IMG/VR virus record: IMGVR_UViG_3300032323_000661
Coordinates: 1-56,368 of that record
Origin: a virus
Lineage: Duplodnaviria > Caudoviricetes
Length of the DNA stretch: 56,368 nt
Reading direction: 5' to 3' (one strand)
Below the pieces are notes generated by a model. That model had not been told where the DNA came from. It saw nothing but the letters and a program-made list of their open reading frames with translations, and searched no databases. Position numbers and translations under genes: made by a program. Below are positions 12,303 to 44,110 of this stretch, piece after piece; within the stretch, counting starts at the first letter, position 1, and every line of letters starts with the position of its first letter.

Positions 12303-13217
12303 TTAGACGCCGGGGGTACCGTACATCGCACGAGGATCGGTGAAGCCGATGTCGTAACGCTCTGTCGCCTTGTAGCGCATAGAGTCAGTCTCGAAATCGC
12401 CTTCCATCGTCTTCTCCAGAGCGCGACGCATCATCAGCTTCATGCCTTCTGGAGCATCGGTCTGGACCCACCACGCGTTGGGGTTAGTCAGACGGGACAG
12501 AACAGCGGCACCTTCGTCCAGCAAGCCGATAGACTTGACGGGGTTGATGTCGTTGTTGGCTGTACCGGCACGCAGCACGGACTTCAGGAGCACTTCGGCT
12601 TGGAACACGTTGCCCGGGGCGACCACCAGCTGGCGGGGCACCAAACGGATACGCTTGCCGTTGTTGTCCACCGCTTGACGGATCTGGATCAACATCTGCT
12701 CCAGCGAGGTCTGCGACAGGTTAGCCGCAGTGCCCAGCAAGTTGGAGAAGGTGCCGTTCACGATCGGGTGAGAAGCGGAGTTCAACTGCACGCCGTCGCC
12801 ACCGGGGAAGGAGGCGTTGAAAGCGCGGTTCAACACGTTGGCGGCGAGTGTTTCCTTGGTCTCGATCAGGGACTGAGCAAGGTGCTTGGCGTACACTTGG
12901 CCGATACGGATGTGGTCGCCGTCTTCCACGAGCACTTTTGTCAAGGCGAAGGCGAGGCCATACACCGAGTAGACGTAGCGCTTGAGGAACAACACACCAC
13001 CTTGCTGGTACGACACTGGAGTGCCGTCCGGCAGCTGGGGGGCTGCACCGAAACCGTACAGGACGGGTTCTTCGTGGTAGTTACGTGGGATGCCCTGCTC
13101 TTCACGGAAGACACGGGACCACTCGTCTTTACGCTGATCATACACGCCATCGAAGCACTCATTCAGAATGGGTTCGACGATGGAACGGAAGTCAGTACTG
13201 CGCATTGGGGCTGCCAT
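12303..13217 (-). CDS. Major capsid protein (HK97 fold, Mu gpT-like family)
   Basis: 304 aa; GFGAAP...G, ETKETLAANVLNRAF, GDFETDSMRYKATERY..G..DPR motifs; position in the head module. Confidence 0.9.
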   Translation of the reverse strand: MAAPMRSTDFRSIVEPILNECFDGVYDQRKDEWSRVFREEQGIPRNYHEEPVLYGFGAAPQLPDGTPVSYQQGGVLFLKRYVYSVYGLAFALTKVLVEDGDHIRIGQVYAKHLAQSLIETKETLAANVLNRAFNASFPGGDGVQLNSASHPIVNGTFSNLLGTAANLSQTSLEQMLIQIRQAVDNNGKRIRLVPRQLVVAPGNVFQAEVLLKSVLRAGTANNDINPVKSIGLLDEGAAVLSRLTNPNAWWVQTDAPEGMKLMMRRALEKTMEGDFETDSMRYKATERYDIGFTDPRAMYGTPGV

Positions 13218-31177: not shown

Positions 31178-31438
31178 CTACTGTTTGATACGGATCGCCA
31201 CAATATGCGCGTACCCCGCGATATCGGCCCAGGAATCGACCACGTTGGGGTCGCCGTTCAGAATGCGCGATATCTTGTGCTGGATCATGTCGAGCGACTC
31301 GCGCTGATGGGGCAACAGGTTCTGCCACCCGGGTATCAGTCGCATGTAGTCCTTCAAGTCCTGCGCGATATGGGCTTGGTCCGTGAAATCCCCATACTGC
31401 TCACCCCGCTCGGCGGTAATTGCTTCGATGTCTGCCAT
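31178..31438 (-). CDS. DUF6378-like small all-alpha protein
   Basis: ERGEQYGDF...LDMI.HKI.RILNGDP...DSW.DIAGYA signature. Confidence 0.75.
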   Translation of the reverse strand: MADIEAITAERGEQYGDFTDQAHIAQDLKDYMRLIPGWQNLLPHQRESLDMIQHKISRILNGDPNVVDSWADIAGYAHIVAIRIKQ

Positions 31439-31443
31439 TTGCT

Positions 31444-31665
31444 TCAGTCCTCCGTCCGTACTGCTCGCGCATCTTCACGTTCGAACAATTCCAACTGGGC
31501 GCGAGTCACGACCTCCACCGGTGCCCCGGTCGTCGCTTCCGGGTGTTCGCGTGTCGTGAACCGCGTCTTGCACACTATGCACCCGCGGCGGCGCTTTACA
31601 CGCCCGTCCTCGTTCTGGTATGTGGTCAACACCCGTGTGTCTTCCCCGCATTCGATGCATCTCAT
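31444..31665 (-). CDS. NrdR N-terminal-like zinc ribbon protein
   Basis: MRCIECG...TRVL.T...RRRGCIVC..RFTT.E; no ATP-cone. Confidence 0.75.
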   Translation of the reverse strand: MRCIECGEDTRVLTTYQNEDGRVKRRRGCIVCKTRFTTREHPEATTGAPVEVVTRAQLELFEREDARAVRTED

Positions 31666-31856
31666 TGCATTTGTCCTTTCACTTCTTGCGCTGCGAATTG
31701 CAGCGATTGCGCCAGTTCCGCGTAGTCGCGGGGGTGCACATGCACGAACTCAATCCCAGCGGTCGGCGAGTTCTGCACGAGGATGACGCCCGTTCCGTAC
31801 ATGAGAGCATCAACCACGGCTTTCTCGGTGACCTGCGCCAGATCGGTCGGGTTCAC
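31662..31856 (-). CDS. Small hypothetical protein
   Basis: The GTG at 31856 overlaps the datZ stop; DALMYGTG motif. Confidence 0.55.
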   Translation of the reverse strand: MNPTDLAQVTEKAVVDALMYGTGVILVQNSPTAGIEFVHVHPRDYAELAQSLQFAAQEVKGQMQ

Positions 31857-32416
31857 AGCCAGCCCCCGTGGATATTGATCTCGGCGCACACTTCGCGCAC
31901 CCCGGCACGCACCCGCAACTCGGGCCACTGCTTCTCGATGGTGTCCACCATTGTGGCGAGAATCCGACGCATACCGTCGAGCACCTCCAGCGCGTGCTGG
32001 CCATAGCCGTTGTCCTGCAGGAAGAAAATCGCCTCGATCTGGTCCGCGAGCTTCACGATCGCTTCGATCTCGGTCCCTTCCGATTGCCGCATCGAGCCCG
32101 AGTGGTCACGGTCCACGAGGTCCTCGGCACGCTCGACGACACCGGGTCCGGCGACCTTTTCGAGTTCGCGCTTAAATGGTGTGGGGATATCGCCCGTACG
32201 CACCTCGATCAAGTCGTGCGAGAGCGCGTTCTGCAGCAGCTGGAGCCGGAGACGGTCGTGCAGCAAGCCCTTGTAGCCCATCGAGGCGGCGAGCGAGCCC
32301 GCAATGACCGCAACCGCAAAGGAGTGTTCGGCCAGTGTCTGCTGGCGGTGCGTTTGTACGATGTGCCAGCGTTTCACATGGCAAGCGCGGAGTTGTTCGT
32401 AGGTGGTGAGGCTCAT
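31853..32416 (-). CDS. datZ: dATP triphosphohydrolase (HD family)
   Basis: YEQLRACHVKRWHIVQT..Q..AEH...HDLIEVRTGDIPTP...KLAD..EA..FL..NG, colinear with cyanophage S-2L DatZ as recalled; start at 32416. Confidence 0.9.
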   Translation of the reverse strand: MSLTTYEQLRACHVKRWHIVQTHRQQTLAEHSFAVAVIAGSLAASMGYKGLLHDRLRLQLLQNALSHDLIEVRTGDIPTPFKRELEKVAGPGVVERAEDLVDRDHSGSMRQSEGTEIEAIVKLADQIEAIFFLQDNGYGQHALEVLDGMRRILATMVDTIEKQWPELRVRAGVREVCAEINIHGGWL

Positions 32417-32628
32417 GAGGTAATCGCTTGAAGGCGACGAATGCGGTCGGCCACTGCGTCGCCGGTCATTTCGTCGAAGATTTGAAATTCGAATTGGCGG
32501 GCTGCGGTTTCGAGTGCGTCGTTCCACACTCGACGGATGGCATTCCGATTCTCGGGGTCATCGTGCCCCTCGTATTGCGCGAACGCGGTATTGTACCACG
32601 CATCGAAGGGTTTATTCCGATCCGACAT
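32413..32628 (-). CDS. 71-aa hypothetical protein between mazZ and datZ
   Basis: MSDRNKPFDAWY...WNDALE.AA...VADRIRRL; overlaps both neighbours. Confidence 0.7.
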   Translation of the reverse strand: MSDRNKPFDAWYNTAFAQYEGHDDPENRNAIRRVWNDALETAARQFEFQIFDEMTGDAVADRIRRLQAITS

Positions 32629-33115
32629 GGCGCATAATCCTCGTGTTCGAGTCCACCGTCCACGAACGGGTCTCGTTAATGTCCATTTTCTCCTCCACCG
32701 CTTTATGCACATCGATGCCGTTCTTGTGCGCGACGTCCAGCAGCAGGATCATGATGTCGCCCATTTCGAGAGCCGCCTTTGGATTACGCGCATATTCGCC
32801 GACTTCTTCATAGAGCTTGAGTAGAATATCGGCTGTAGTCCTATTAGGGAAGTTCGCGTCCGCCCATTTCGTGATGCGGTCCTGTAATTGGCATATATCT
32901 GCACCGCCTCTCTTTTTGTAGGCGTTGACTGCTCGCACTGTAAGATCCGCATTCCGGTCGCAATTGGCGAGAACACCCTTGAGGTGGTGACGAACTTCGA
33001 AAGACGCGACGGCAGCGCCGGTCGCATCGACAACGACCGCCCCATTTGTCGGGGAGACCGCCCACGGTGTTGCGTTCTCATGGTCAGTATGTACGGTTGA
33101 TTCAACTTGCAGCAT
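32612..33115 (-). CDS. mazZ: MazG-like (d)GTP diphosphohydrolase with extra N-terminal domain
   Basis: LQ..I..W....P.R....KL.EE.GE...LE..D..IL.LD...INE.RSW...MRH matches S-2L MazZ as recalled; start at 33115 behind AAGGAG. Confidence 0.85.
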   Translation of the reverse strand: MLQVESTVHTDHENATPWAVSPTNGAVVVDATGAAVASFEVRHHLKGVLANCDRNADLTVRAVNAYKKRGGADICQLQDRITKWADANFPNRTTADILLKLYEEVGEYARNPKAALEMGDIMILLLDVAHKNGIDVHKAVEEKMDINETRSWTVDSNTRIMRHVGSE

Positions 33116-34217
33116 TGCGGCACTCCTTCCAGTATTGTACGATTTTTTGCATGCGTTCGGCACGATCGCCGTTTATCTGGCGCACGTCGTGGTATCCCGG
33201 CCCCACCCCGATCCAGCGCACTTGCGTGTCTTTGCGTTCGATCGCTTGCACGATGTCGATCAGCTCCACCTCGTTGCGCACGTAGTTCACGAAATTGAGG
33301 AACACCTCGAACACGCCGTTGTGCCGAATCGCCTCCTCGATCTGTCGGCCCGAGAACGTGAAAATCCGGCGCGGCAGCTTCGTCACCGTGGTGAGTTCGG
33401 TCTTTTGCCCGATGTCCTCGAATGCGATCTCCACCTGATCATTGTAGCACGGGCCGGAGTATCCGACCTGCGTCCCAGTTTCGTCGAATCGGTTAGCCAC
33501 ACGGATCGGGTAGGTGCGGCAGGTGCCGAGTGCGCGGACCTTGCAGACGCGGTACTTGTCGAGCACGTCGGCGGCTTGGATGCCGGAGTCGGCCAGGATC
33601 TGCCACAGCGACACATCGCGGGAAGTCGTGTAGGGGTAGAATCCATGGTACATCGACAGCTCGTAGCCCTGCGCTCCCTCGACCAGCACGTATTCGGAAT
33701 CCTTGAGCGCTTGGCGGTACTCGTCGGTAGTGACCACGTACGGACCGAGCACATCGATGAAATTCGCCGCAATGTTCTGGTCGTCCGGGTCGCGCCGGAT
33801 ACGCTGCACCATTGCTGCGCCCACGCCCTTTTTGGTCGAGCCGATCTTAGTCATGGGTCCCGCCTCTTCCTCGATGTGGCGGTCGGTCACAATGGCGGCG
33901 TGCGGGTGGATGAGGATGTCGATATTCTTGTGGATGATGATATCGCGGCACTGCTCGATCTCGGCCAGCAGCCGGGACGGGTTGATCAGCGAGCCCGGGC
34001 CGAGGAACACGCGACGGACTGCGGGTCCCACGATGCCGTTGGCGAGGTGTGTGTGAATGAACTTGCGCCCGTTCTTGTCGATGTACGTGTGCCCCGCATT
34101 TGGTGCCCACGCAGTCACAATCGCGTCGTACGGGCCATTCTCGGCAAGGTAGCCCACGAGGAGGCCCTTGCCGGTGCTGCCGTATTGAAGATCTACGATG
34201 ACGTCTACTTTTTCCAT
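33102..34217 (-). CDS. purZ: N6-succino-2-amino-2'-deoxyadenylate synthase
   Basis: PurA fold with YGSTGKG instead of WGDEGKG, PNAGHT, EGAQG, TTVTKLPRRIFTFS, and FLNFVNY instead of TKLD. Confidence 0.95.
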   Translation of the reverse strand: MEKVDVIVDLQYGSTGKGLLVGYLAENGPYDAIVTAWAPNAGHTYIDKNGRKFIHTHLANGIVGPAVRRVFLGPGSLINPSRLLAEIEQCRDIIIHKNIDILIHPHAAIVTDRHIEEEAGPMTKIGSTKKGVGAAMVQRIRRDPDDQNIAANFIDVLGPYVVTTDEYRQALKDSEYVLVEGAQGYELSMYHGFYPYTTSRDVSLWQILADSGIQAADVLDKYRVCKVRALGTCRTYPIRVANRFDETGTQVGYSGPCYNDQVEIAFEDIGQKTELTTVTKLPRRIFTFSGRQIEEAIRHNGVFEVFLNFVNYVRNEVELIDIVQAIERKDTQVRWIGVGPGYHDVRQINGDRAERMQKIVQYWKECRNAAS

Positions 34218-34233
34218 TATTACTCCTGTTGTG

Positions 34234-36072
34234 TTAACCTTTAGCTTCGTACCAATCGTCCCCGATACCCCAGTCGCACGTGATCGGCACGCGCAACGCG
34301 ATCGGGCATTCTACACCGTCGAATGTGGTGTAAATCCGTGCTATCTCCTCCGCGTGCTGCAGACAGTCGGTGTCGAGCGAGATATCCACCTCGTCGTGAA
34401 CCGACAGCAGCAACCGCCCCCAGCCCTCGCTGCGAAGCTTGCGGTGCAACTCGATAAGCTTAATCTTCATGCAGTCGGCGCTGGTCGCTTGGTAGATCAG
34501 TCCCGACGCCTTGTGCACGAACCGCCCACCCGGGAACCGGATGTGTCTGCCCATCATCGAATGCACGTACCCGCGCTCTTTCGCGATGCCCGACGCCTTG
34601 ATCTGGTTGTTGCGCATACCCGGGTTCGCCGCGTGGTACTTGTCGAACAGCGCCAGCGCCTCGGGTCCGGCCTTGAGGTAAACGTTGCCGTTCGGCCCCT
34701 CCTCCTCGGTGTACGGCAAGCCGCACTCCTGCGCCAGCCGTCCGGAGCCCATGTTAAAGGCGAGTCCGAGGTTGATCGCCTTGGAGGACGGACCCCCGGC
34801 GTACTGCGCGTTGCGGGGAATGCCGGTCATGTCGGAGACCAGCTGGTGGAAATCCAGTTGCGGGTTCTTGCGGTAGGCCTCTAGAATCGCGGGTACTTGA
34901 CCGTAATGATTAGCCACTCGGAATTCGAATTGCGACCAATCAAGGCCCAGCCATTTCGCACCATAATCCGCCTTAAAAATCGGACGAACCAGCGATTTAA
35001 TAGCGACGTCTCTACTCGGGATCTGCTGCAGAGCGGGATTTGTAATAGAAAGCCGCCCGGTTCCCGTTCCAGCTTCAGAGTCATTTTTGGTCTGGTTGTA
35101 GTTGCAGTGAATGATGCCGTCGTGTTGATGCCCAAGGATGTGCCCCGACAGGAAGGTGTCGCGGGTCTTGAGCATCTTGCGAAGGTCCAGGATTTGCTTT
35201 GCCGCTGGGTGCCGCATGCGGCGCAGACAGTCGGCGTTGATGGACGCCTTGCCCCCGTCGGTCTTGTCGGCCCGGGTGCCGTCAATCAGATACCATTCAT
35301 TGTCCGCACCGAGCTTGGGTTGAAACAGCTGTGCGATTGAACCGGAGGGGTTCGGATTGACCTCGAAGCCCGCCATGGTATTGAGATCGCGCTGGAATTC
35401 GTCGATGCGAACGGTGAGGCTCCGGATGGCCTTCTCGGCCAGCTCCACGTCCACCCGCACTCCCTCGGTCTCCATGTCGATAATCACCGGCTGCAGATCG
35501 CGCTCCAGCTGGTGAACCCGGCGCAGGTTCTGGCGCTCCATTTCGCCGCACTGCCATTCGTACAGTGCCCGGGTGACCACCGCGTCTTGCACAGCGTACT
35601 TGGATACCACGTGCACGGGGGCTCGCGATATGTTCGGCATCTGCGCGTTCCGCGTCGCCCGCCCACCGAAGAGCTTGGCCATTTCCTCGTAGATCTCGTC
35701 GTCCTTCTTCGCACCGCAGTATTTGCGGGCCAGGAAGTCGAGCGTGTAGGTCGGCTCGTGCTCGTTGATCAGCGCAGCACGAATCATCGTGCAGTCCAGC
35801 TGCTCGGGAGGCAGTAGAACGCCGCCTTCGCGCAGAAAGTGGTAGTCGAATTTAATGTTGTGCCCGATCCACTCGCCCACGCGACCCTCGCGGATCAGGT
35901 CGTTGAACCACTCGACAATACGGGGCTCCTCGCGTACGTCCCAGTAGTACCCGCCTTCTTCCCCGGGCAACGCGATGGAAATCCCGAATACACGGTCTTC
36001 CCACCACTTGAGCCCAGTTGTCTCGGTGTCGATCACGCAGTACGGGACCGAATCAATACGGGGAACTCGCAT
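34234..36072 (-). CDS. dpoZ: Family A DNA polymerase with 3'-5' exonuclease, probably Z-selective
   Basis: Exo I DTETTGL, Exo II HNIKFD, Exo III YAVQD, TGRLS...P.LQQIP, motif A DWSQFEFR, atypical motif B KAINLGLAFNMG, motif C VHDE; directly upstream of purZ. Confidence 0.85.
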   Translation of the reverse strand: MRVPRIDSVPYCVIDTETTGLKWWEDRVFGISIALPGEEGGYYWDVREEPRIVEWFNDLIREGRVGEWIGHNIKFDYHFLREGGVLLPPEQLDCTMIRAALINEHEPTYTLDFLARKYCGAKKDDEIYEEMAKLFGGRATRNAQMPNISRAPVHVVSKYAVQDAVVTRALYEWQCGEMERQNLRRVHQLERDLQPVIIDMETEGVRVDVELAEKAIRSLTVRIDEFQRDLNTMAGFEVNPNPSGSIAQLFQPKLGADNEWYLIDGTRADKTDGGKASINADCLRRMRHPAAKQILDLRKMLKTRDTFLSGHILGHQHDGIIHCNYNQTKNDSEAGTGTGRLSITNPALQQIPSRDVAIKSLVRPIFKADYGAKWLGLDWSQFEFRVANHYGQVPAILEAYRKNPQLDFHQLVSDMTGIPRNAQYAGGPSSKAINLGLAFNMGSGRLAQECGLPYTEEEGPNGNVYLKAGPEALALFDKYHAANPGMRNNQIKASGIAKERGYVHSMMGRHIRFPGGRFVHKASGLIYQATSADCMKIKLIELHRKLRSEGWGRLLLSVHDEVDISLDTDCLQHAEEIARIYTTFDGVECPIALRVPITCDWGIGDDWYEAKG

Positions 36073-36075: not shown

Positions 36076-36357
36076 TCAGAACGGGATGTCGTCGGACTCA
36101 ATACCCCCGAAGCTTGGGCGCTCCATGCGCTGCACCCCACCACCGCTGGCCGGAGCCTGTGACTCTTTGCGGTTGAGCTTGATGGAGAAGTACTTTTTGC
36201 CTTCCATCTTGCCACCGGGCTTGCCCTCGTTCACCCACGCGGAGAGCCAGTAATCTGTGCCCTCGACGTTGATCGAGCCGGAGAATTCCGGGTGCTTGTC
36301 CGTCTTGCGGTTCTCGTTGCGGGCCATCATGCCCGAATTGGTGTTGTCGTATGCCAT
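36076..36357 (-). CDS. Small ssDNA-binding protein with DDIPF tail
   Basis: Start MAYDN at 36357; K..KHP...G.I...G..YW.SAW...YFS pattern; SSB-like acidic C-terminus. Confidence 0.75.
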   Translation of the reverse strand: MAYDNTNSGMMARNENRKTDKHPEFSGSINVEGTDYWLSAWVNEGKPGGKMEGKKYFSIKLNRKESQAPASGGGVQRMERPSFGGIESDDIPF

Positions 36358-36433: not shown

Positions 36434-37849
36434 TTACAATGGGTAGGGGTTGTGGCCCTCCACAATGTCGAGTTGCCGCTTGGCGCGAGTCATACCGACG
36501 TACCAGACGCGAATCTCGTCGTCGGGCGATTTCTCGGCACTTTGCGCCACTCGGGTGGTCATGTCCGTGAGAAGAATGACGCGATCGGCCTCGTGACCTT
36601 TCGCAGCATGGATTGTAGAAAGCCGGATCGTGGGGATGGATTCCAAGTCAGCGTCTCGGTAAAAGTCCACGGCTCGCCCGGGGATGTTGAGTGCAACGTA
36701 GAAGGGTCGAGCATATACCGATTTGTAGTCGTTGGCCTCAAGGAATCCCCGAGTGGAGGCAGTGGCACAATTGAAGAGCGAATTTCGCTCTCCGTCAGTG
36801 ATCTGCTCGCCCCTTTCAAGCTTGCGGAATACGCGAATAGCGGCTGCGTATTTGTTCTGGTACATCCCCGGGCGTCCCGATTCGCGCACGTACGGGATGC
36901 GTTCTTCAATGAGCGATTGCTCAACTTCGCGAAGCACTGAATGCGTCCGTCCCAGTAAAAGTATATCCTCTCCATGTGTGATGTCCACGGAGTGAATCGA
37001 CCCGAATAGGCGGACCAGTCCCAAATCCGGGCGGGGACTAAAGTCCTTGTCCACTCGGAGAGCAACGCGACGGATGAGGTCTTGAGATTTCGCGTGGATT
37101 GCAGCAGGAAGTCGATGCGAGAGCGAGAGCACATGGCTATCACCCTGATGCTTCTGCGTGAATCTTGCCATACCGTGTGCATCCGCACCGGCCCACGTAT
37201 AAATCGCCTGATCATCGTCCCCTGCGATATGCACTTCGTGAGCACGTCGGCAGAGCTCCTCGATAACACGCCACTGAAGAGGTGATAAGTCTTGAGCTTC
37301 ATCGACAAATACGACTTCGGCATCTCCACGCATGCCGCCCCGAGCGGCTCGCTCAAGCATGTCGGTAAAGTCGTAAAAGCCATACGTAGATTTCCACTCA
37401 GCGTATGCCCGTACGAACGCATTGAACTCGGCGCGGGTTCCCGGCCTATCCGAGACGTCATATACTTCATCCGGATGGGAGAAGGTGTTGCGGGCATAGT
37501 TAAGTAGGTCAAGGTAGAAGTCTCCATCGGCACGCTCCTCATCGTCTTCGGGTGATTTCCCAATAATCGGAATCCCCATCACCGTGGAGAACTCCCGCAG
37601 TTTCATCGAATCCACCACCTGCGCCTGTCGCATATTCATCGATCGAAATGCCATGGCGTGGATGGTGGATACGTTGTCGGACCGCTTAAGACCGAGCCTG
37701 GACAGAGCCTCCGAGGCGGCGGCACGGGTGAACGACACGAAGGCGACGCGTTCGGCCTGAACGCCTGAATTCCTCGTGTGCTGCACCCGCCGCAGCATCT
37801 CGGTGGTCTTGCCGGTGCCCGGAGGCCCGTAGAGCGCGTGGACTTGCAT
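36434..37849 (-). CDS. SF1 (UvrD/Rep-like) DNA helicase
   Basis: GPPGTGKTT, SFTRAAA, VDEAQD, AGDDDQAIY, STIHAAKG.E, YVGMTRAK; ATG at 37849. Confidence 0.92.
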   Translation of the reverse strand: MQVHALYGPPGTGKTTEMLRRVQHTRNSGVQAERVAFVSFTRAAASEALSRLGLKRSDNVSTIHAMAFRSMNMRQAQVVDSMKLREFSTVMGIPIIGKSPEDDEERADGDFYLDLLNYARNTFSHPDEVYDVSDRPGTRAEFNAFVRAYAEWKSTYGFYDFTDMLERAARGGMRGDAEVVFVDEAQDLSPLQWRVIEELCRRAHEVHIAGDDDQAIYTWAGADAHGMARFTQKHQGDSHVLSLSHRLPAAIHAKSQDLIRRVALRVDKDFSPRPDLGLVRLFGSIHSVDITHGEDILLLGRTHSVLREVEQSLIEERIPYVRESGRPGMYQNKYAAAIRVFRKLERGEQITDGERNSLFNCATASTRGFLEANDYKSVYARPFYVALNIPGRAVDFYRDADLESIPTIRLSTIHAAKGHEADRVILLTDMTTRVAQSAEKSPDDEIRVWYVGMTRAKRQLDIVEGHNPYPL

Positions 37850-38208
37850 TAGCCTCGGTGCGTGATGCCACGAACGGCCCACATGCTGGCGGTCTCGGCG
37901 TTGGTGATGGCCACGGAGAACATGCGTTGCACTTCGGCGTCGTGGTAGGAGTCGCGCAGCACCAACAGGTACGTAATTGCTGCGTCGAAATGCTGCTTCG
38001 TCTGTTTCACGCGACGTATCTCGTCTTGAGACAAGGGAACATGCAGCGTCACCGACTCCTGCTCCCTCGCGGGTGCTGGGTCCGGCGTGGGCGCTGCGGC
38101 CACCACGGGTTGCGGGGATTGCACCGCGCTCTCGCTGGGCATGTCGCTGGGCATTGCCTTGAAATCGTCGTGCGGTACGGTCGTATCGGTAGTCTTTTTG
38201 GTCGCCAT
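37849..38208 (-). CDS. Acb2/Tad1-like helical-hairpin protein (putative cyclic-nucleotide sponge)
   Basis: LSQDEI..VK..K...R..SVAIT..E.A.MWAVRGI after a Pro/Ala-rich disordered N-terminus. Confidence 0.6.
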   Translation of the reverse strand: MATKKTTDTTVPHDDFKAMPSDMPSESAVQSPQPVVAAAPTPDPAPAREQESVTLHVPLSQDEIRRVKQTKQHFDAAITYLLVLRDSYHDAEVQRMFSVAITNAETASMWAVRGITHRG

Positions 38209-38224: not shown

Positions 38225-38374
38225 TTAGAAGCAGTTGGTGGTACAGTTCGGTCCGAAGCAGCAGGTGGTGCAGGTCACGATGCGACCGCCCTGCATGATT
38301 GTGTGCGTTGAGCATGCCGCCCAAGTGCTCGTGGAGAGCGCAAAGATCCAGACGCCTACGAGTGCTTTTTTCAT
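38225..38374 (-). CDS. 49-aa secreted 6-Cys peptide
   Basis: MKKALVGVWIFALSTSTWAA-CSTHTIMQGGRIVTCTTCCFGPNCTTNCF*; GGAG RBS, ATGA overlap; not in the ORF track. Confidence 0.75.
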   Translation of the reverse strand: MKKALVGVWIFALSTSTWAACSTHTIMQGGRIVTCTTCCFGPNCTTNCF

Positions 38375-38733
38375 GATAACTCCCTAGGTGCGGGGAACAG
38401 TTGGGCCAGCACTTCGGCGTACTGGGACTTGCGGCGCTCCAGCAGCGCGGCTTTGTCGAGCTTGTCGAGGAGGCTCGGGAAGTTAATGTCCTCCTTGCTG
38501 CACTGCTCTTGGATATCGGCTTCCAATCGGATCAGCTCGTCGTCCAGCTTGGCCATCTCCAGCTCGGCTTGGCTCTTGACCTTGCGTGCGCGAATCGGTG
38601 CCAGCGACTCGGCCAGCTTGGCCATCTCCAGCTCGGCTTGGCTCTTGACCTTGCGTGCGCGAATCGGTGCCAGCGACTCGGCCAGCTTCTCTTTCGACAG
38701 TGCGATGATCTCGGCGAATGGTTTCAATTTCAT
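38371..38733 (-). CDS. Coiled-coil protein with internal 23-aa duplication
   Basis: LAESLAPIRARKVKSQAELEMAK occurs twice. Confidence 0.7.
   Translation of the reverse strand: MKLKPFAEIIALSKEKLAESLAPIRARKVKSQAELEMAKLAESLAPIRARKVKSQAELEMAKLDDELIRLEADIQEQCSKEDINFPSLLDKLDKAALLERRKSQYAEVLAQLFPAPRELS
38544..38688. repeat. Perfect 69-bp tandem duplication
   Basis: Units start at 38544 and 38613, bounded by CCAGCTT, which recurs at 38682. Confidence 0.9.
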
Positions 38734-39023: not shown

Positions 39024-39051
39024 ATAACCGGGGCCGAAGCCCCGTGGTTAT
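39024..39051 (-). terminator. UUCG hairpin
   Basis: CGGGGC-TTCG-GCCCCG, extendable by ATAACC/GGTTAT, right after the 39051 stop. Confidence 0.5.
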
Positions 39052-39803
39052 CAATATTCGGAGTCTGCGGTCTCTGCCACTTCACCGTCGTAGTCGTTCG
39101 ACACCTTCACGCCACCTGCGCGGATGGTCTCGTACAGCTTCTCGGCACGGTCGTACACGTCTTTGCTCACGAACCCGAGTGGTGCGATCGCGAAGTTGTG
39201 GTACGATTCGTTGCGAGCGTTCGTCTCGGTTGCCGCCGACAGCTTGTAGGCACGGGCGAACGAGTCGGTTTGCGTCATGCGGATCAACGAGTTCCAGCGC
39301 TTGGAGACTTTCATTTTGGACTTGGCCATCGAGATCACCGCCTCCTGCCACTCGCCCCCGTAGTTCACGAGCACGAAATGCTGTGCGGTGTCGGAGACTT
39401 CGAGGCCTTCTTCACCCAGCTGCGCGATTGTGTCGCGAGCCAGTGCCTCAGTGGCGAATGCTCCACGGAAACCGTTGCTGCCACCACCCCCGGCTTTGCG
39501 GTCCTTCCACACGAGGAATTGCTTGGTGTAGTACACCGGCACAACTGTGACCGCCTCGCCATACAGCTGGCGCGTGACGTTGTTGTACAGCATACCCTCG
39601 TCGGCCCCTTCAATGTACGCCGGATCGTTCTTTTTGCGCGCTGGCGACAGCGCCTGAATCAGTTCGATTCGGGGGATAATCATGTCGTCGGTGGTGACGT
39701 TCTCGGCTCCGCGAGCTTGGCCCTGCTTGAGCCATTCCGGAATTTCGTTAGTCATTACTTCGAACGATTGCTCTTGTACTGCTACTGCTTGGTTCTTTGC
39801 CAT
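39051..39803 (-). CDS. Putative ssDNA-binding/annealing protein
   Basis: G.ENV...D..IPRI.L.QALSP...W...GG...S..WN pattern with acidic tail, in the replication module; AGGAG RBS. Confidence 0.55.
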   Translation of the reverse strand: MAKNQAVAVQEQSFEVMTNEIPEWLKQGQARGAENVTTDDMIIPRIELIQALSPARKKNDPAYIEGADEGMLYNNVTRQLYGEAVTVVPVYYTKQFLVWKDRKAGGGGSNGFRGAFATEALARDTIAQLGEEGLEVSDTAQHFVLVNYGGEWQEAVISMAKSKMKVSKRWNSLIRMTQTDSFARAYKLSAATETNARNESYHNFAIAPLGFVSKDVYDRAEKLYETIRAGGVKVSNDYDGEVAETADSEY

Positions 39804-39869
39804 TTCTGGACTCCTAGTTACATGCACGCGAGGCGTGCGGGGTTATCCGGCAGGATTGCCGAATTCGGG

Positions 39870-39945
39870 CGGGACTGTGTGGGGATCGAACCCACCACCT
39901 TCGGGTTTGAACGGCGAATTTCGCGCCGACCTCTGCTCCAGTCCC
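39870..39945 (-). ncRNA. tRNA-like element (degenerate, tRNA-fMet-like)
   Basis: 7-bp acceptor stem GGGACTG/CAGTCCC, T-arm GTGGG-TTCGATC-CCCAC, TGGAGCAG and AACCCGAAGGT segments; broken anticodon stem; no encoded CCA. Confidence 0.55.
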
Positions 39946-39952
39946 CATAATC

Positions 39953-40390
39953 TCATGACCGAGTGATACTGGCTCGCGTGAAAGGCGAGACGTTCAGCAT
40001 GTCGTCGGGGATCTCTTCACCGCTGCGGTACATCTGCTTCACCGTCGCTTTCAGCGTCGAGGGGTTAACGTTCGCGGTTATCAGGTCGCCCCGGCCATTG
40101 TCGCCGAGCCACTCGAAGAACCGCTCTTTCTGGTCCGCCTTGATACTCACGTGCATATCGGCGGTCAGCGACACGCGGCCAATGCCGGACACCGCGATGC
40201 GGTCCACACCATCATCCTCCATCTTCGCGGGCACTTTTGTGATGCGCAAGAAGTCGTATTCCTTGTTGAGTATCTTCAGCTGCGCCTCGATCGCTTCCTT
40301 GCGATTTTGCAGCGTGGACATTGCTTCGATCAGTTCTACGAGTGTCTTGCCGTCGTACTGCGCGAATTCGTTGGGGGTATCAATAGACAT
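39953..40390 (-). CDS. Conserved replication-module protein
   Basis: Coiled coil followed by WL...G.GDLI...VNPSTLKA.V motif; AAGGAG RBS. Confidence 0.7.
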   Translation of the reverse strand: MSIDTPNEFAQYDGKTLVELIEAMSTLQNRKEAIEAQLKILNKEYDFLRITKVPAKMEDDGVDRIAVSGIGRVSLTADMHVSIKADQKERFFEWLGDNGRGDLITANVNPSTLKATVKQMYRSGEEIPDDMLNVSPFTRASITRS

Positions 40391-40721
40391 TTATTTCTCC
40401 TTCGATCGAGATTCTGATGGGGGTGTACATACGGTCGCGGTTGTTCCACTTGAGGATGTTGAAGGTCGTTCCCTTCTCGCGAGCAATAGCGAATACAAGT
40501 CCCGCAACGATGGGAGAACCAGAAGTCGCGATGAAATCGACCTCCGGCCTGTACTCGGCGAATCGGCTTCGGATGAAGGCGACGAGCTTTTTGTTGTGCA
40601 GGGAGTCGAGCACATTCGATACCTCACTGGTGGACAAGAACACGGGTTCCCCGAATCGTTCAATGTCGGAGTAGTTGGCGGTCATCACCTCTTGCGTGAT
40701 GTAAATCTTCGGCTTTTCCAT
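40380..40721 (-). CDS. Small alpha/beta hypothetical protein
   Basis: 113 aa; DFIATSGSP and ILKWN...Y motifs; ATAGAGGAC RBS and TATAAT at 40751-40756. Confidence 0.7.
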   Translation of the reverse strand: MEKPKIYITQEVMTANYSDIERFGEPVFLSTSEVSNVLDSLHNKKLVAFIRSRFAEYRPEVDFIATSGSPIVAGLVFAIAREKGTTFNILKWNNRDRMYTPIRISIEGEINVY

Positions 40722-40758: not shown

Positions 40759-42492
40759 CTACACGAGTGTTCCGAGTAACTTACCGGTAGAACGATCGTT
40801 TATGCTCGTGCGAATGAACTCCGATACGTCCTTCTTGCTCTTGAGCGCTTCAATCACGGTCTCGTCCACAGTGCCCTCGGCCACCAAATCGATGTAGGTT
40901 ACACTCCGCGTCTGCCCGATCCGGTGCGCCCGGTCCTCGGACTGCTCGCGGTCGGTGAACGAGAACGAGTTGGAGTAATACACGACGAGCTCGGCGGCGG
41001 TCATGTTGAGACCCACGCCACCGGTGGCCGCGTTGCCCACGATGAACCTCGCCTTCTTGGTCTGGAACTTGTCCGACACGTTCGCCCAGCGTGTGTCCTC
41101 GTCGATCGCTCCGTACACCTGCACGACAGAACTCGGCCCGTACTTCTCGACAAGCGCCTCGGTCACCATCTGGATCTCTTCGATGAACCGGCACCAAATG
41201 ATCGTGCTGCACTCGGTCTCTTCCACGATCGACATTAGCTCCTCGATCTTTGCGTTCTTGCCGGGAATCCGTACATGATCGAATTTCGAGGGGTTGTGGA
41301 CGTCCGGGTTGCGTTCCCACGTTGCCACTCCTCCTGCGATTTCTTGGAGTCGGAGCATTTTTTCGAGCATTGTGGTGACGGTGATTCCTCGATCTCCCAT
41401 GACCGCTTTGTCACGCTTAGCAATTTCGCGATATATTCTTTTCTGTTCATCATTGAGTTGCACTGTTCTGGTTTCGAACACTTTCGGCGGCAATTCGGTC
41501 AGCACCTCCGACTTGCGCACTTGGAACGTGAAGGGCGCGAGCAATTCGGTCAGCTCCGCCATGTTCTGGTAGCCCACGACCTGCCGTTGCTCGTACCCGC
41601 CCATGATCGCGTAGCGGTTACGGAACGAGTAGAAATCGCCGATCCCGATGATATTCGGGTCGATGAACTCGAACTGCATGAACACGTCCATAGGTCCGTT
41701 GGCCACAGGGGTGCCGGTCATAATCACCCGGTAGTTCGCCGACAGCCCGAGCTTGACGCAATTCTTGGACCGTACCGCCGAATGGGTCTTGATCATGTGC
41801 GCTTCGTCCACGATCATTCCCACCCGAGTGCTGCAGCCGACGAACTTTTGCGCCAGCAGCGTCGCACCACCAGCGGCGAGCGATTCGGTGCCCACGATCA
41901 GGAATTTAAGGCCTCGGCTCGTGTCGGTGTTCCACGCCTCGAACACCTTGGGTTTGCTGGTGTCGAGCACAAGCACGTCGGTCTCGACCGGGCAGTGAAT
42001 CCCGATCTCGGCCTCCCAGTTGCGGCGCGTCGAGAACTTGGTCACCACGAGCACCCGGTCCACCTTGCCGTCGACGAAATACGCCGAGAACAGGTCGAGC
42101 GACGTCTTGGTCTTGCCGGTGCCCATGTCCATGTAGAACGCGAACCCTGGCTTGCCCCATGCACAATCGAGCGCTCGGCGCTGGTATCCCCTCGGCTCCG
42201 TCTTGAACGGGTACAGGGGTGGGAACGGATTTAGACGGGCGGCAGCCTTTTCGATAGTGCGAGTTGCAGCCTCGCGAGCTGGGCCTGTGAAAACGTCAGC
42301 ACCAAAATTGCTGAGCAGAAACTCGCTATTAGCGCGTAATGCAGGAGCTGTCCACACGCGGCGACGAGCATCCCAACGCCGATTAGGCACCGCACGCACC
42401 TTGTCCACCATCCAAGGAGGAGTCTCGATAATGAAGCGCGAGGTCTTGGCATCGTAGTCAATCTTAATATTCGGAGCGGAAGACGGGTTCAT
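40759..42492 (-). CDS. SF2 (SNF2-like) helicase
   Basis: DMGTGKT, VDEAH, MTGTP, GGVGLN, QSEDRAHRIGQ. Confidence 0.92.
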   Translation of the reverse strand: MNPSSAPNIKIDYDAKTSRFIIETPPWMVDKVRAVPNRRWDARRRVWTAPALRANSEFLLSNFGADVFTGPAREAATRTIEKAAARLNPFPPLYPFKTEPRGYQRRALDCAWGKPGFAFYMDMGTGKTKTSLDLFSAYFVDGKVDRVLVVTKFSTRRNWEAEIGIHCPVETDVLVLDTSKPKVFEAWNTDTSRGLKFLIVGTESLAAGGATLLAQKFVGCSTRVGMIVDEAHMIKTHSAVRSKNCVKLGLSANYRVIMTGTPVANGPMDVFMQFEFIDPNIIGIGDFYSFRNRYAIMGGYEQRQVVGYQNMAELTELLAPFTFQVRKSEVLTELPPKVFETRTVQLNDEQKRIYREIAKRDKAVMGDRGITVTTMLEKMLRLQEIAGGVATWERNPDVHNPSKFDHVRIPGKNAKIEELMSIVEETECSTIIWCRFIEEIQMVTEALVEKYGPSSVVQVYGAIDEDTRWANVSDKFQTKKARFIVGNAATGGVGLNMTAAELVVYYSNSFSFTDREQSEDRAHRIGQTRSVTYIDLVAEGTVDETVIEALKSKKDVSEFIRTSINDRSTGKLLGTLV

Positions 42493-44026: not shown

Positions 44027-44080
44027 GATTTCCTCGCTATAAGCTATTGGGGATTGACACCACCTCGGTGGGCTGGTAGA

Positions 44081-44110
44081 ATTATAACACTCCCCATCTC
44101 GGAACAGCAA
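44081..44110 (-). promoter_or_regulatory. sigma70-like promoter for the primase operon
   Basis: TTGCTG-18-TATAAT with extended TG. Confidence 0.65.

What the first reader, a model, noticed from the sequence alone, without database searches (positions are those of the whole stretch)
31853..36072. Complete 2-aminoadenine (Z) genome system: dpoZ-purZ-mazZ-datZ in one operon
Seen: a PurA-fold enzyme with the PurZ-diagnostic GSTGKG and NFxNY motifs, a MazG-like hydrolase, an HD hydrolase and a family A polymerase, contiguous behind one promoter. Known: PurZ converts dGMP, Asp and ATP to dSMP; host PurB and kinases yield dZTP; MazZ supplies dGMP; DatZ destroys dATP; DpoZ prefers dZTP (cyanophage S-2L, Vibrio phage phiVC8); Z-DNA resists many restriction enzymes. 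Inference: virion DNA has A replaced by Z. The pathway itself is described. What may be new is S-2L-like purZ/mazZ/datZ combined with a DpoZ, on a GroES-encoding, Mu-gpT-like-capsid, short-tailed backbone.
Basis: partly seen in the sequence, partly recalled or inferred. Interest (0 to 1): 0.9.

Follow-up and report, generated by a model that had tools for sequence, protein, structure and literature searches.

The report
Known-type 2-aminoadenine (Z-DNA) phage gene module
This complete 56-kb uncultured phage genome carries an intact, tightly packed set of genes (DpoZ, PurZ, MazZ, DatZ) that known phages use to replace adenine with 2-aminoadenine in their DNA; the gene set is real, but it is the usual arrangement for such phages and not a new combination.

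Summary
At 31853-36072 (minus strand) lie intact genes whose best solved-structure matches are phiVC8 DpoZ (E 9e-135), phiVC8/S-2L PurZ (E 1.7e-79/5.5e-77), S-2L MazZ (E 4e-13) and S-2L DatZ (E 3.5e-19). The published specificity residues are in place. The PurZ falls inside the PurZ clade, apart from PurZ0 and PurA.

The novelty claim fails. Czernecki et al. 2021 state that all Z-cluster phages except S-2L have a PolA DpoZ. The order helicase-DpoZ-SSB-PurZ-pyrophosphohydrolase-HD hydrolase is present in Salmonella phage PMBT28, Acinetobacter phage SH-Ab 15497 and Pseudomonas phage PSA28.

The window is one member of a large uncultured clade:
- 50 of 64 IMG/VR loci have PurZ at 57% identity or more, with the same synteny.
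- 5 of 5 full-length relatives have a capsid protein 91-96% identical.

The structural module resembles Caulobacter Riverwalk-type phages and ctpbd312, in which no PurZ or DpoZ match was found.

Clade-specific extras are a conserved ~70-residue N-terminal domain on MazZ, a conserved 71-aa gene between mazZ and datZ, and a nearby DUF6378 gene. All three are of unknown function.

Verdict: new member of a known kind. Z-substitution of the DNA is very likely but untested.

The parts
36434..37882 (-). UvrD/PcrA-like DNA helicase, first gene of the conserved replication/Z block
   Evidence: PHROG 1967 DNA helicase 1.7e-78. 38-39% identical to the helicases upstream of DpoZ in PMBT28, SH-Ab 15497 and PSA28. 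Found in 47 of 64 IMG/VR loci.
36076..36357 (-). Small single-strand DNA-binding protein (start at the internal ATG, 93 aa)
   Evidence: PHROG 7364 SSB 4e-14, matching from residue 38 of the 129-aa ORF. 49% identical to the PMBT28 'DNA-binding protein' over residues 1-49. Here it lies upstream of dpoZ, whereas in PMBT28 and SH-Ab 15497 it lies between dpoZ and purZ.
34234..36072 (-). dpoZ: family A DNA polymerase with 3'-5' exonuclease, phiVC8-like (DpoZ-2) type
   Evidence: PDB 7pbk (phiVC8 polymerase) E 9e-135; next best is Taq at 3e-39. 41-48% identical to the PolA of PurZ phages, then a drop to 30% or less for other phages, including PhiJL001 at 29.9%. Insertions 1, 2 and 3 of phiVC8-like DpoZ are present and R141/M145 match R161/M165. 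Also present: DTE at 15-17, DWSQFE at 378, VHDE at 558.
33102..34217 (-). purZ: N6-succino-2-amino-2'-deoxyadenylate synthase
   Evidence: PDB 6fko (phiVC8 PurZ) 1.7e-79 and 7odx (S-2L PurZ) 5.5e-77, against 7vf6 'PurA-like' 3e-26 and E. coli PurA 2e-15. Residues Y12, S14, T15, T276, N308-F309-V310-N311-Y312. Inside the PurZ clade (SH-aLRT 97), separate from PurZ0 (99).
32612..33115 (-). mazZ (MazZ-1/DUF550 type) with a clade-specific ~70-residue N-terminal domain
   Evidence: C-terminal domain matches PDB 7ody (S-2L MazZ) at 4.4e-13 and Pfam PF04447. 18 of 21 S-2L pocket or metal residues are identical. No similarity to phiVC8 MazZ-2. The N-domain is covered in 50 of 63 IMG/VR MazZ matches. 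It found only 8 proteins among 1.84 billion representatives.
32413..32628 (-). orf71: conserved small gene of unknown function between mazZ and datZ
   Evidence: Overlaps mazZ by 17 nt and shares an ATGA with the datZ start. Homologue found in 45 of 64 IMG/VR loci at 32-65% identity. No Pfam or PHROG family. Atlas neighbours are unnamed viral clusters only.
31853..32416 (-). datZ: HD-domain dATP triphosphohydrolase
   Evidence: PDB 6zpa (S-2L DatZ) 3.5e-19. PHROG 7076 4e-29. W17 and I19 match the S-2L specificity pair W20/I22. The H...HD...D metal motif is present.
31662..31856 (-). orf64: small ORF with a GTGA overlap on the datZ stop; unknown function, start uncertain
   Evidence: Junction sequence. 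No Pfam family. 36% match to a small ORF of ctpbd312. The only relative with a gap of matching size between datZ and the next gene is L009; the gap itself was not searched.
31444..31665 (-). 73-aa protein with an NrdR-like zinc ribbon
   Evidence: Pfam Zn_ribbon_NrdR 4.1e-9. Residues 1-~43 are conserved directly after datZ in 49 of 64 IMG/VR loci.
31178..31438 (-). DUF6378 protein: conserved neighbour of Z clusters, function unknown
   Evidence: Pfam DUF6378 2e-8. Found in 51 of 64 IMG/VR loci. Homologues in BUCT555 (49%) and phiVC8 p22 (33%). Family matches in S-2L and in Ochrobactrum phage OH directly upstream of purZ. The model is a helical bundle (pLDDT 90.7) with no PDB fold match.

Best explanation
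The region is a complete, intact 2-aminoadenine (Z) genome module of the PurZ/DpoZ-2 type. It sits in the replication operon of a complete 56.4-kb uncultured phage.

Proposed mechanism, inferred from characterised homologues:
1. MazZ hydrolyses dGTP to dGMP.
2. PurZ condenses dGMP with aspartate, using ATP or dATP as phosphate donor, to give dSMP.
3. Host adenylosuccinate lyase and host kinases convert dSMP to dZMP and then dZTP. No phage copy of these enzymes was found among the ORFs I scanned.
4. DatZ strips the triphosphate from dATP, so adenine is withheld from replication.
5. The phiVC8-like DpoZ polymerase, with its proofreading exonuclease, favours Z:T over A:T pairs.

The expected result is virion DNA with A replaced by Z, which resists many restriction enzymes.

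Shown here: gene presence, integrity, order, family membership, and conservation of the published specificity residues. Inferred: every enzymatic activity and the DNA composition.
For: Best solved relatives are the four characterised Z enzymes:
- 7pbk, E 9e-135
- 6fko and 7odx, E 1.7e-79 and 5.5e-77
- 7ody, E 4.4e-13
- 6zpa, E 3.5e-19

PurZ residues:
- S14 replaces the Asp of PurA; T15 replaces the Glu of PurZ0 and PurA.
- N311 sits where PurZ0 and PurA have Asp.
- F309 and Y312 stack the adenine of ATP, per the bioRxiv preprint 10.1101/2025.10.22.683976, section 8, and PMC8342488.

Tree of 65 rows: the window lies inside PurZ (SH-aLRT 97), with PurZ0 separate (99).

DatZ has W17/I19, equivalent to W20/I22, the adenine/deoxyribose specificity pair.

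MazZ:
- Conserved are E103, E104, E107, E117, D120, I123, D127 and R150.
- These correspond to S-2L E34, E35, E38, E50, D53, I56, D60 and R83.
- The three differing positions are the ones the paper calls unique to S-2L.

DpoZ has the three insertions of the phiVC8-like subfamily and the helix-E2 R/M pair. There is an identity gap of 41-48% against 30% or less between Z and non-Z phage PolAs.

Synteny: dpoZ-purZ-mazZ-datZ all found in 54 of 64 IMG/VR relatives, in that order in all 54. Seven of the ten without all four lack dpoZ, each on a contig with purZ at or near its end.

Overlapping start and stop codons link the genes.
Against: - No biochemical or DNA-composition data exist for this phage or its clade. 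The Z-Calling paper (PMC13128860, passage) notes that most PurZ-predicted Z genomes lack direct proof.
- The DpoZ paper (PMC8599892) says no single feature explains Z selectivity. It also notes that the non-Z phage PhiJL001 polymerase carries two of the three insertions, so the insertions are not fully diagnostic.
- Insertion 3 is 4 residues shorter here than in phiVC8 (15 against 19). The phiVC8 exonuclease insertion 117-127 is absent, as it also is in SH-Ab 15497 and PMBT28.
- MazZ carries an extra N-terminal domain of unknown effect.
- MazZ substrate range is not predictable: dGTP only as in S-2L, or dATP plus dGTP as in SH-Ab 15497.
- No phage-encoded lyase or kinases were seen, so completion of the pathway depends on an unknown host.
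Confidence: 0.85

Rival explanations
1. The genes are functional but substitution is only partial: virion DNA is a mixture of A and Z. This could be because DatZ or MazZ clear dATP incompletely in the natural host, or because this DpoZ discriminates weakly.
For: Under near-physiological dATP and salt, phiVC8 DpoZ still incorporates runs of 1-6 adenines (PMC8599892, passage). Expressing the S-2L Z-cluster in E. coli replaced only 12.1% (plasmid) and 3.9% (chromosome) of adenine (PMC8342488, passage). Insertion 3 of the window's DpoZ is shorter than in phiVC8.
Against: The introduction of PMC12884076 describes complete substitution of A by Z in such phages and names phiVC8, SH-Ab 15497 and S-2L as the three with an elucidated dZTP pathway. 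All specificity residues are conserved here.
Confidence: 0.1
2. The adenylosuccinate-synthetase homologue is a PurZ0 or PurA-type enzyme. It would use a GTP donor, or IMP as substrate for ordinary purine salvage, and the module would not make Z by the PurZ route.
For: Pfam only recognises the general Adenylsucc_synt family. PurZ0 phages also pair such an enzyme with a PolA.
Against: - The motif is GSTGKG, not the GSEAKG of PurZ0 or the GDEGKG of PurA.
- N311 replaces the Asp at the matching position in the PurZ0 and PurA rows of my alignment.
- E 1.7e-79 to PurZ structures against 3e-26 to 7vf6 and 2e-15 to E. coli PurA.
- The tree separates it from PurZ0.
- Its partners are DatZ plus MazZ-1. 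No matches to the Dut-like, NDT-like or DUF5664 families appeared in my scans, which were by Pfam or PHROGs and not every ORF by both.
Confidence: 0.03
3. The module is a recently acquired or decaying cargo that is not expressed or not needed, and the phage replicates with canonical DNA.
For: The closest structural relatives in GenBank (ctpbd312, Caulobacter phage RW) gave no PurZ or DpoZ match. The module has therefore moved between backbones.
Against: - All genes are intact with coupled start and stop codons.
- DpoZ is the only family A polymerase identified in the genome, so it is presumably the replicase.
- The block is conserved in order in 54 of 54 relatives that have all four genes, with protein identities of 71-85% for DpoZ across the clade. 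This implies long purifying selection.
Confidence: 0.02

Closest known systems
Replication/Z module of Salmonella phage PMBT28, Pseudomonas phage PSA28 and Acinetobacter phage SH-Ab 15497 (the last described in the papers read as having a characterised dZTP pathway)
   Same: Same gene set and almost the same order: UvrD-like helicase, DpoZ, small SSB, PurZ, DUF550/MazZ-1-type pyrophosphohydrolase, HD hydrolase DatZ. Protein identities to the window are helicase 38-39%, DpoZ 46-48%, PurZ 44-46%, MazZ C-domain 43-45% and DatZ 27-36%.
   Different: - SSB lies upstream of dpoZ here, not between dpoZ and purZ.
- The MazZ of those phages carries an N-terminal domain that Poubanne et al. call DUF5664. 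The window's N-terminal domain is unrelated: it did not align, and one search found 8 hits of which 5 are short proteins.
- The window has an extra 71-aa gene between mazZ and datZ.
- Capsid and portal are unrelated: 0 of 3 of these phages matched.
Vibrio phage phiVC8 (DpoZ structure 7pbk, PurZ structures 6fko and others)
   Same: DpoZ 41% and PurZ 44% identical. The three subfamily insertions, the TGR pre-motif A and R161/M165 are conserved. It carries a DUF6378-like p22 near the cluster.
   Different: phiVC8 uses MazZ-2 (p26), which has no detectable similarity to the window's MazZ. phiVC8 has an 11-residue exonuclease insertion (117-127) that the window lacks. Its DatZ has L, not I, at the position of I22.
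Cyanophage S-2L Z-cluster (datZ-mazZ-purZ; structures 6zpa, 7ody, 7odx)
   Same: MazZ-1 type with the same metal and guanine-pocket residues (18 of 21). DatZ has the W/I pair. PurZ has Y at position 12 and the NF.xY motif. The order purZ-mazZ-datZ is shared.
   Different: S-2L has no PolA and replicates with a non-selective PrimPol (PMC8342488). The window has DpoZ plus an AEP-type primase (42464-44110) that gave no sequence match to any PDB chain. S-2L MazZ has no N-terminal extension.
PurZ0 systems of actinophages (represented here by Arthrobacter phage OMalley, Microbacterium phage Benry and Gordonia phage Frizzle)
   Same: A PurA-family enzyme with Ser at position 14, next to a family A polymerase.
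   Different: PurZ0 rows have GSEAKG, D at position 297 and Q at 298. They are 30-35% identical to the window over residues 1-301 only and form a separate clade. Their partners are DutZ, DmtZ and DUF5664-1 rather than DatZ and MazZ (PMC12884076, section 25).
Caulobacter phage RW (proposed Riverwalkvirus) and the uncultured phage ctpbd312 (MW202545.1)
   Same: Structural and packaging module. Against ctpbd312: capsid 87-88% amino-acid identity, portal 61%, large terminase 48%, GroES 58%. The capsid is 76% identical to RW_GP086c.
   Different: No PurZ or DpoZ match in either record (the tool warns that an empty answer is weak evidence). In ctpbd312 nothing in window 23.5-49 kb has a homologue except orf64.

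Membership tests
PurZ (ATP-dependent dGMP-specific succino-aminodeoxyadenylate synthase) | Ser replaces the catalytic Asp13 of PurA in the P-loop (GSTGKG), with Thr and not Glu at the next position | tested here: met
   Window has S14 and T15. The PurZ0 rows have S-E and the PurA row has D-E. The role of S14 is cited from bioRxiv 10.1101/2025.10.22.683976, section 8.
PurZ (ATP-dependent dGMP-specific succino-aminodeoxyadenylate synthase) | ATP-type donor pocket: N-F-x-N/Q-Y (phiVC8 N294, F295, N297, Y298) instead of the Asp of GTP-using enzymes | tested here: met
   Window has N308, F309, V310, N311, Y312. The two PurZ0 rows and the PurA row have D at the position of N297. Roles are from PMC8342488 and the bioRxiv preprint, section 8.
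PurZ (ATP-dependent dGMP-specific succino-aminodeoxyadenylate synthase) | Phylogenetic placement inside the PurZ clade, apart from PurZ0 and PurA | tested here: met
   65-row quick IQ-TREE: PurZ side SH-aLRT 97, PurZ0 99, window nested among IMG/VR PurZ rows. Caveats: quick search only, a single PurA outgroup taken from an UNVERIFIED record, and long branches flagged by the tool.
PurZ (ATP-dependent dGMP-specific succino-aminodeoxyadenylate synthase) | Catalyses dGMP + Asp + ATP to dSMP | not testable with these tools
   Needs an enzyme assay.
PurZ0 | GSEAKG P-loop, and Asp-Gln at phiVC8 positions 297-298, as seen in the PurZ0 rows aligned here | tested here: not met
   Window has GSTGKG and N311-Y312. 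These features were read from my own alignment of 2-4 PurZ0 rows, not from a published definition.
DatZ (dATP triphosphohydrolase, HD superfamily) | HD metal site plus the W20/I22 pair that gives deoxyribose and adenine specificity in S-2L DatZ | tested here: met
   W17 and I19 align with W20 and I22. AEH and SHD...TGD are conserved. Residue roles are from the bioRxiv preprint, section 10.
DatZ (dATP triphosphohydrolase, HD superfamily) | Hydrolyses dATP to dA plus triphosphate | not testable with these tools
   Needs an enzyme assay.
MazZ-1 (S-2L-like MazG-type (d)GTP pyrophosphohydrolase; Pfam PF04447/DUF550) | Metal ligands E35, E38, E50, D53; guanine contacts I56 and D60; R83 | tested here: met
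   All are conserved (window E104, E107, E117, D120, I123, D127, R150). 18 of 21 listed pocket residues are identical. The 3 that differ are I16, N20 and A92, which the paper calls unique to S-2L.
MazZ-2 (phiVC8-like) | Sequence similarity to phiVC8 p26 | tested here: not met
   BLASTP found no alignment at E of 100 or less.
phiVC8-like DpoZ (DpoZ-2) | Three subfamily insertions (phiVC8 349-353, 442-448, 473-491) and R161/M165 on exonuclease helix E2 | tested here: met
   All three regions are filled in the window. Insertion 3 is 4 residues shorter (15 against 19). R141 and M145 are conserved. The paper notes these features are not strictly diagnostic.
phiVC8-like DpoZ (DpoZ-2) | Closer to PolAs of PurZ phages than to any other phage PolA, and encoded beside purZ | tested here: met
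   41-48% identity to PolAs of PurZ phages against 30% or less for the others shown, in a spread listing of 45 of 233 records. The gene ends 16 nt upstream of purZ.
phiVC8-like DpoZ (DpoZ-2) | Kinetic preference for dZTP over dATP | not testable with these tools
   Needs primer-extension assays.
Z-cluster as defined by Czernecki et al. 2021 | datZ, mazZ and purZ co-located, with mazZ between purZ and datZ | tested here: met
   The order is purZ-mazZ-orf71-datZ. One extra small gene is inserted between mazZ and datZ. Definition from PMC8342488.

The most novel reading that the evidence does not exclude
The clade carries accessory parts of the Z pathway that have not been characterised:
- A conserved ~70-residue, mostly beta N-terminal domain fused to MazZ-1, in place of the DUF5664 domain of the SH-Ab 15497-type enzymes.
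- A conserved 71-aa protein translationally coupled between mazZ and datZ.
- A DUF6378 helical protein that recurs next to or near Z clusters in at least five separate PurZ lineages: this clade, phiVC8, BUCT555, Ochrobactrum phage OH and S-2L.

One or more of these could tune the dNTP pool, for example through dATP or dADP clearance or regulation of MazZ. Alternatively they could act on host enzymes needed to finish dZTP synthesis.
Probability: 0.2. Interest if true: 0.55.

Novelty: new member of a known kind. Interest (0 to 1): 0.3.

Why it matters
Z-genome phages are a rare natural case of a changed genetic alphabet, and their enzymes are used to make ZTGC-DNA.

This window adds no new principle, but it documents three things:
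- A full, intact PurZ/MazZ-1/DatZ/DpoZ module on a structural backbone shared with Caulobacter Riverwalk-type phages. None of the five named Z phages I tested shares that backbone.
- Membership of a large freshwater or environmental clade. At least 50 IMG/VR contigs belong to it, several of them complete at 55-59 kb. No GenBank phage PurZ is more than 48% identical.
- Clade-specific accessory genes that could be tested cheaply alongside the known triad.

For annotation, it also shows that Caulobacter phage RW gene GP086c is the major capsid protein, which the RW authors reported as unidentified.

Tried and rejected
DUF6378 as a hidden MazG-like or DUF5664-like pyrophosphohydrolase: rejected for lack of evidence.
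- BLASTP against the PMBT28 enzyme gave E 3.8.
- hhalign of the DUF6378 alignment against DUF5664/MazZ-2 gave probability 0.2%, and against MazZ 0.1%.
- Foldseek against PDB gave no match below E 4.5, despite a confident model at pLDDT 90.7.
- phmmer against PDB gave only a chance-level hit.

N-terminal domain of MazZ.
- The AlphaFold model was of middling quality (mean pLDDT 71). The only significant PDB fold match was S-2L MazZ, for the C-domain.
- phmmer against 1.84 billion representatives gave 8 hits. Five are short proteins of 77-167 aa, presumably the same gene.
- The three long hits carry fn3, Ig_7 or fungal transcription-factor domains. I regard them as compositional noise.

orf71: no Pfam or PHROG family, no similarity to small neighbours of purZ in named Z phages, and only unnamed viral clusters in the Atlas.

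The AEP primase as an S-2L-like PrimPol: no PDB sequence match at E 0.01 or less, so no support.

Promoter and terminator scan: counts were at chance level, so no operon boundary is claimed.

A search for other nucleotide-metabolism genes found none. It covered 10 more ORFs in 24.7-29.9, 31.7-31.9 and 39-40.7 kb. It did find Pam3 gp32/33/34-like proteins.

The genome search with PF00709 gave no loci from the control genomes. The only PurA outgroup is therefore a bacterial-type gene in an UNVERIFIED 'Staphylococcus phage' record.

I did not use the look-up of sequencing runs, read laying or complex prediction. Short-read contigs cannot show a Z base, and no binding claim is made.

The following could show whether this clade or DUF6378 is already catalogued, and I could not see them:
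- the list behind 'over 2000 viruses' predicted by PurZ homology;
- Supplementary Table S3 and Fig. S9 of PMC12884076;
- the 116-domain list of the bioRxiv preprint.

My statement that the clade has no GenBank representative rests only (INPHARED release of August 2025).

Full report
WHAT THE WINDOW IS. The window is a whole IMG/VR virus record of 56,368 bp, classed as having direct terminal repeats and 100% complete. The two ends share an exact 123-bp repeat. G+C is about 59% and no tRNA gene was found. Most genes are on the minus strand.

Structural and packaging genes occupy roughly 0.8-23.5 kb and 49-56.4 kb:
- portal, large and small terminase;
- capsid and GroES/Cpn10;
- endolysin, virion and tail-fibre-like proteins.

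A replication block occupies roughly 29-44 kb. It holds an AEP-type primase, two helicases, Pam3 gp32-34-like proteins, SSB and a family A polymerase.

CHECK OF THE OBSERVATION.

Family searches:
- Pfam: DNA_pol_A plus exonuclease, Adenylsucc_synt, PF04447 dATP/dGTP pyrophosphohydrolase, and YfbR-like/HD.
- PHROGs: DNA polymerase, '2-aminooxy adenylosuccinate synthetase' (1.9e-84), dATP/dGTP pyrophosphohydrolase, and dATP triphosphohydrolase (4e-29).

Against all PDB chains, each protein's best relative is the matching characterised Z enzyme:
- The polymerase hits 7pbk, the phiVC8 polymerase, at E 9e-135. The next best is Taq at 3e-39.
- The synthetase hits phiVC8 PurZ 6fko at 1.7e-79 and S-2L PurZ 7odx at 5.5e-77. 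It hits a 'PurA-like' chain 7vf6 only at 3e-26 and E. coli PurA at 2e-15.
- The MazG-like protein hits only S-2L MazZ 7ody, at 4.4e-13.
- The HD protein hits S-2L DatZ 6zpa at 3.5e-19, ahead of E. coli YfbR at 1.8e-7.

Junction sequences show tight coupling:
- dpoZ starts 3 nt after the SSB stop.
- purZ has an AGGAG 7 nt upstream of its ATG.
- The mazZ ATG at 33115 (AAGGAG upstream) overlaps purZ by 14 nt.
- A 71-aa ORF overlaps mazZ by 17 nt and shares ATGA with the datZ start.
- A further small ORF shares GTGA with the datZ stop.

Promoter-like and terminator-like sites are no more frequent than in shuffled sequence. The best promoter-like site lies upstream of ssb.

RESIDUE-LEVEL MEMBERSHIP TESTS. 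I aligned the window proteins with those of named phages and read the published determinants from the papers.

PurZ:
- The window has Y12, S14 and T15 (GSTGKG), T276, and N308-F309-V310-N311-Y312.
- The PurZ0 rows have S-E in the P-loop and D-Q at the positions of N311-Y312. The PurA row has D-E and D-V.
[quoted passage not shown] F and Y stack the adenine of ATP. N/Q at position 297 conflicts with guanine.

DatZ:
- W17 and I19 match W20 and I22 of S-2L DatZ, the published sugar and adenine specificity pair.
- The HD metal motif is present.

MazZ:
- The C-terminal domain is 39% identical to S-2L MazZ.
- It keeps 18 of 21 listed pocket and metal residues, including I56, D60 and R83. The three differing positions are those the paper calls unique to S-2L.
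- It has no similarity to phiVC8's MazZ-2. It is therefore a MazZ-1/DUF550-type enzyme.

DpoZ:
- The three insertions that define the phiVC8-like subfamily are all filled. The third is 4 residues shorter (15 against 19).
- R141 and M145 match R161 and M165 of helix E2.
- The exonuclease motif (DTE) and polymerase motifs (DWSQFE, VHDE) are present.
- phiVC8's own exonuclease insertion 117-127 is absent, as it is in SH-Ab 15497 and PMBT28.
- The authors caution that no single feature explains Z selectivity, and that the non-Z phage PhiJL001 polymerase shares two insertions.

PHYLOGENY AND DATABASE POSITION. A tree of 65 rows places the window inside the PurZ side (SH-aLRT 97), separate from PurZ0 (99), within a group of about 39-40 IMG/VR sequences. 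The rows were the window, 7 named PurZ, 4 PurZ0 or PurA-like actinophage proteins, 52 distinct IMG/VR proteins and one bacterial-type PurA.

It is a quick search with one outgroup, and the tool flagged long branches, so only the PurZ/PurZ0 split is used here.

In GenBank phages no PurZ is more than about 48% identical to the window's (210 records matched). For the polymerase, the PurZ phages shown score 41-48% identity (E 1e-127 to 1e-172). The next records fall to 30% or less (spread listing of 45 of 233 records).

WHY THE COMBINATION IS NOT NEW.
- Czernecki et al. [quoted passage not shown] They describe MazZ-1 and MazZ-2, note frequent N-terminal fusions of MazZ-1, and state that all ZTGC-DNA phages but S-2L have a PolA polymerase (PMC8342488, passages).
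- Poubanne et al. 2026 describe PurZ phages as mostly encoding DatZ plus MazZ-2 or DUF550, with DpoZ-2. They recognise at least seven groups of Z phages, five of which connect to canonical phages of related hosts (PMC12884076, sections 4 and 25).
- The annotated neighbourhoods of PMBT28, SH-Ab 15497 and PSA28 read helicase, DNA polymerase I, small DNA-binding protein, adenylosuccinate synthetase, pyrophosphohydrolase, hydrolase.

The S-2L-type triad plus DpoZ is therefore the rule, and S-2L is the exception.

THE CLADE. A scan of IMG/VR with the window's PurZ returned 64 loci at 46-87% identity. By tblastn with the window's proteins:
- 54 of 64 loci have dpoZ, purZ, mazZ and datZ, all 54 in that order.
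- The 7 loci without dpoZ have purZ at or within about 800 bases of a contig end.
- 50 of 64 have PurZ at 57% identity or more.
- 50 of 63 MazZ matches include the N-terminal domain.
- 45 of 64 have the 71-aa gene, and 51 of 64 have the DUF6378 gene.

Five of five full-length relatives (55.5-59.0 kb, all rated 100% complete) have a capsid protein 91-96% identical to the window's. The window is thus one member of a sizeable uncultured lineage with a stable genome plan.

Within the clade two spots vary:
- The gap between orf71 and datZ ranges from 0 to 1.9 kb.
- 48 of the 49 relatives with both flanking genes carry about 2 kb or more between the zinc-ribbon gene and the DUF6378 gene. In the two loci examined this holds a histone-deacetylase-family gene and an unknown gene of 384 or 394 aa. 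The window and its closest relative L009 lack it.

MOSAIC BACKBONE.
- The capsid gene is 80% identical in DNA to the uncultured phage ctpbd312 and 75% to Caulobacter phages RW, KcrB, RLK and GB2A.
- ctpbd312 shares homologues only of window genes at about 0.8-23.5 kb and 49.1-56.4 kb. Nothing in 23.5-49 kb is shared except a small ORF.
- Neither ctpbd312 nor RW gave a match to the window's PurZ or DpoZ. The tool warns that empty answers are weak. RW is reported to have its own DNA polymerase I (PMC11053796, Table 1 text).
- Conversely, PMBT28, SH-Ab 15497, PSA28, S-2L and phiVC8 gave no match to the window's capsid or portal (0 of 5 each).

A Z-type replication module related to that of PMBT28 and SH-Ab 15497 therefore sits on a Riverwalk-like structural module. 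This fits the published picture of Z phages linked to canonical phages of related hosts. It suggests, but does not show, an alphaproteobacterial freshwater host.

CLADE-SPECIFIC EXTRAS.
- The MazZ N-terminal domain (residues 1-~70 from the ATG at 33115) is strongly conserved in a 15-sequence alignment, which has many invariant residues. It models as a small beta unit plus a helix, with block pLDDT of 82-89 for residues 11-40. It has essentially no relatives outside the clade.
- orf71 has no family.
- The DUF6378 protein also occurs in BUCT555, phiVC8 (p22), S-2L and Ochrobactrum phage OH, where it lies directly upstream of purZ. It was not found in PMBT28, SH-Ab 15497, PSA28, the PurZ0 phage OMalley, ctpbd312 or RW.

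I could not link DUF6378 to any pyrophosphohydrolase family, and I have no base rate for it among phages. The association is a lead only.

MECHANISM AND CONFIDENCE. By homology, the expected steps are:
- MazZ makes dGMP from dGTP.
- PurZ makes dSMP from dGMP, aspartate and ATP or dATP.
- Host lyase and kinases finish dZTP.
- DatZ removes dATP.
- DpoZ copies the genome with a preference for Z:T pairs.

Gene identity is close to certain. Actual and complete A-to-Z replacement is inferred, and I put it at about 0.85. The rivals are partial substitution, a PurZ0/PurA-type enzyme, and inactive cargo. The last two have little support (see their entries).

The claim that the clade is undescribed therefore rests only on the GenBank phage collection searched and on three literature searches. 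Tail morphology was not determined.

Noticed in passing
window 31178-31438 (-): An 86-aa DUF6378 protein lies four genes downstream of datZ. Homologues or family matches also lie near the Z clusters of phiVC8 (p22), BUCT555 and Ochrobactrum phage OH (directly upstream of purZ), and elsewhere in S-2L. None was found in PMBT28, SH-Ab 15497, PSA28, OMalley, ctpbd312 or RW. The model is a confident helical bundle with no PDB fold match.
   Followed up: partly
L012:9218-11192 and L035:10377-12447 (IMG/VR relatives); corresponds to the junction at window ~31440: 48 of 49 relatives with both flanking genes carry about 2 kb or more between the zinc-ribbon gene and the DUF6378 gene. In these two loci it holds a histone-deacetylase-family gene (Pfam Hist_deacetyl 1.4e-32 / 1.3e-26) and an unknown gene of 384 / 394 aa. 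The window and L009 lack both.
   Followed up: partly
between orf71 and datZ in IMG/VR relatives (window ~32413-32416): The spacing between orf71 and datZ varies from 0 to about 1.9 kb (median 206 nt, n = 45). It is filled with small ORFs without Pfam families in the two loci examined, so it looks like an insertion hot spot inside the Z cluster.
   Followed up: partly
window 12303-13217 (-) and L006:2995-3909 (Caulobacter phage RW, RW_GP086c): The RW authors state that the major capsid gene of the RW cluster was not identified (PMC11053796, section 13). RW_GP086c is 76% identical to the window's capsid protein. That protein matches Pfam Phage_capsid_4, and its ctpbd312 homologue is annotated as major capsid protein. 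RW_GP086c is therefore very likely the RW capsid gene.
   Followed up: partly
window 39051-40721 (-): Three consecutive genes match the Pfam families Pam3_Gp34 (2.2e-66), DUF7307/Pam3 gp33-like (3.4e-37) and Pam3_gp32 (1.5e-15). They lie between the two helicases. Pseudanabaena phage Pam3 also appears among the distant PolA matches (29%).
   Followed up: no
window 38371-38733 (-): The 120-aa ORF contains a perfect tandem duplication of a 23-residue segment (AESLAPIRARKVKSQAELEMAKL twice), seen in the translation.
   Followed up: no
window 42464-44110 (-): The primase is of the archaeo-eukaryotic type (PHROG 21866 at 4e-121; Pfam AEP-TOTE 6.7e-12, weak PriCT_1). It has no sequence match in the PDB, so it is not demonstrably like the S-2L PrimPol.
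   Followed up: partly
window 1-123 and 56246-56368: There is an exact 123-bp direct terminal repeat. This may be an assembly overlap of a circular or circularly permuted genome rather than true physical ends.
   Followed up: no
window 31444-31665 (-): A 73-aa protein with an NrdR-like zinc ribbon follows the Z cluster. The first ~43 residues are conserved directly after datZ in 49 of 64 relatives. NrdR is a nucleotide-sensing repressor of ribonucleotide reductase genes (recalled), so a regulatory role is conceivable but untested.
   Followed up: no
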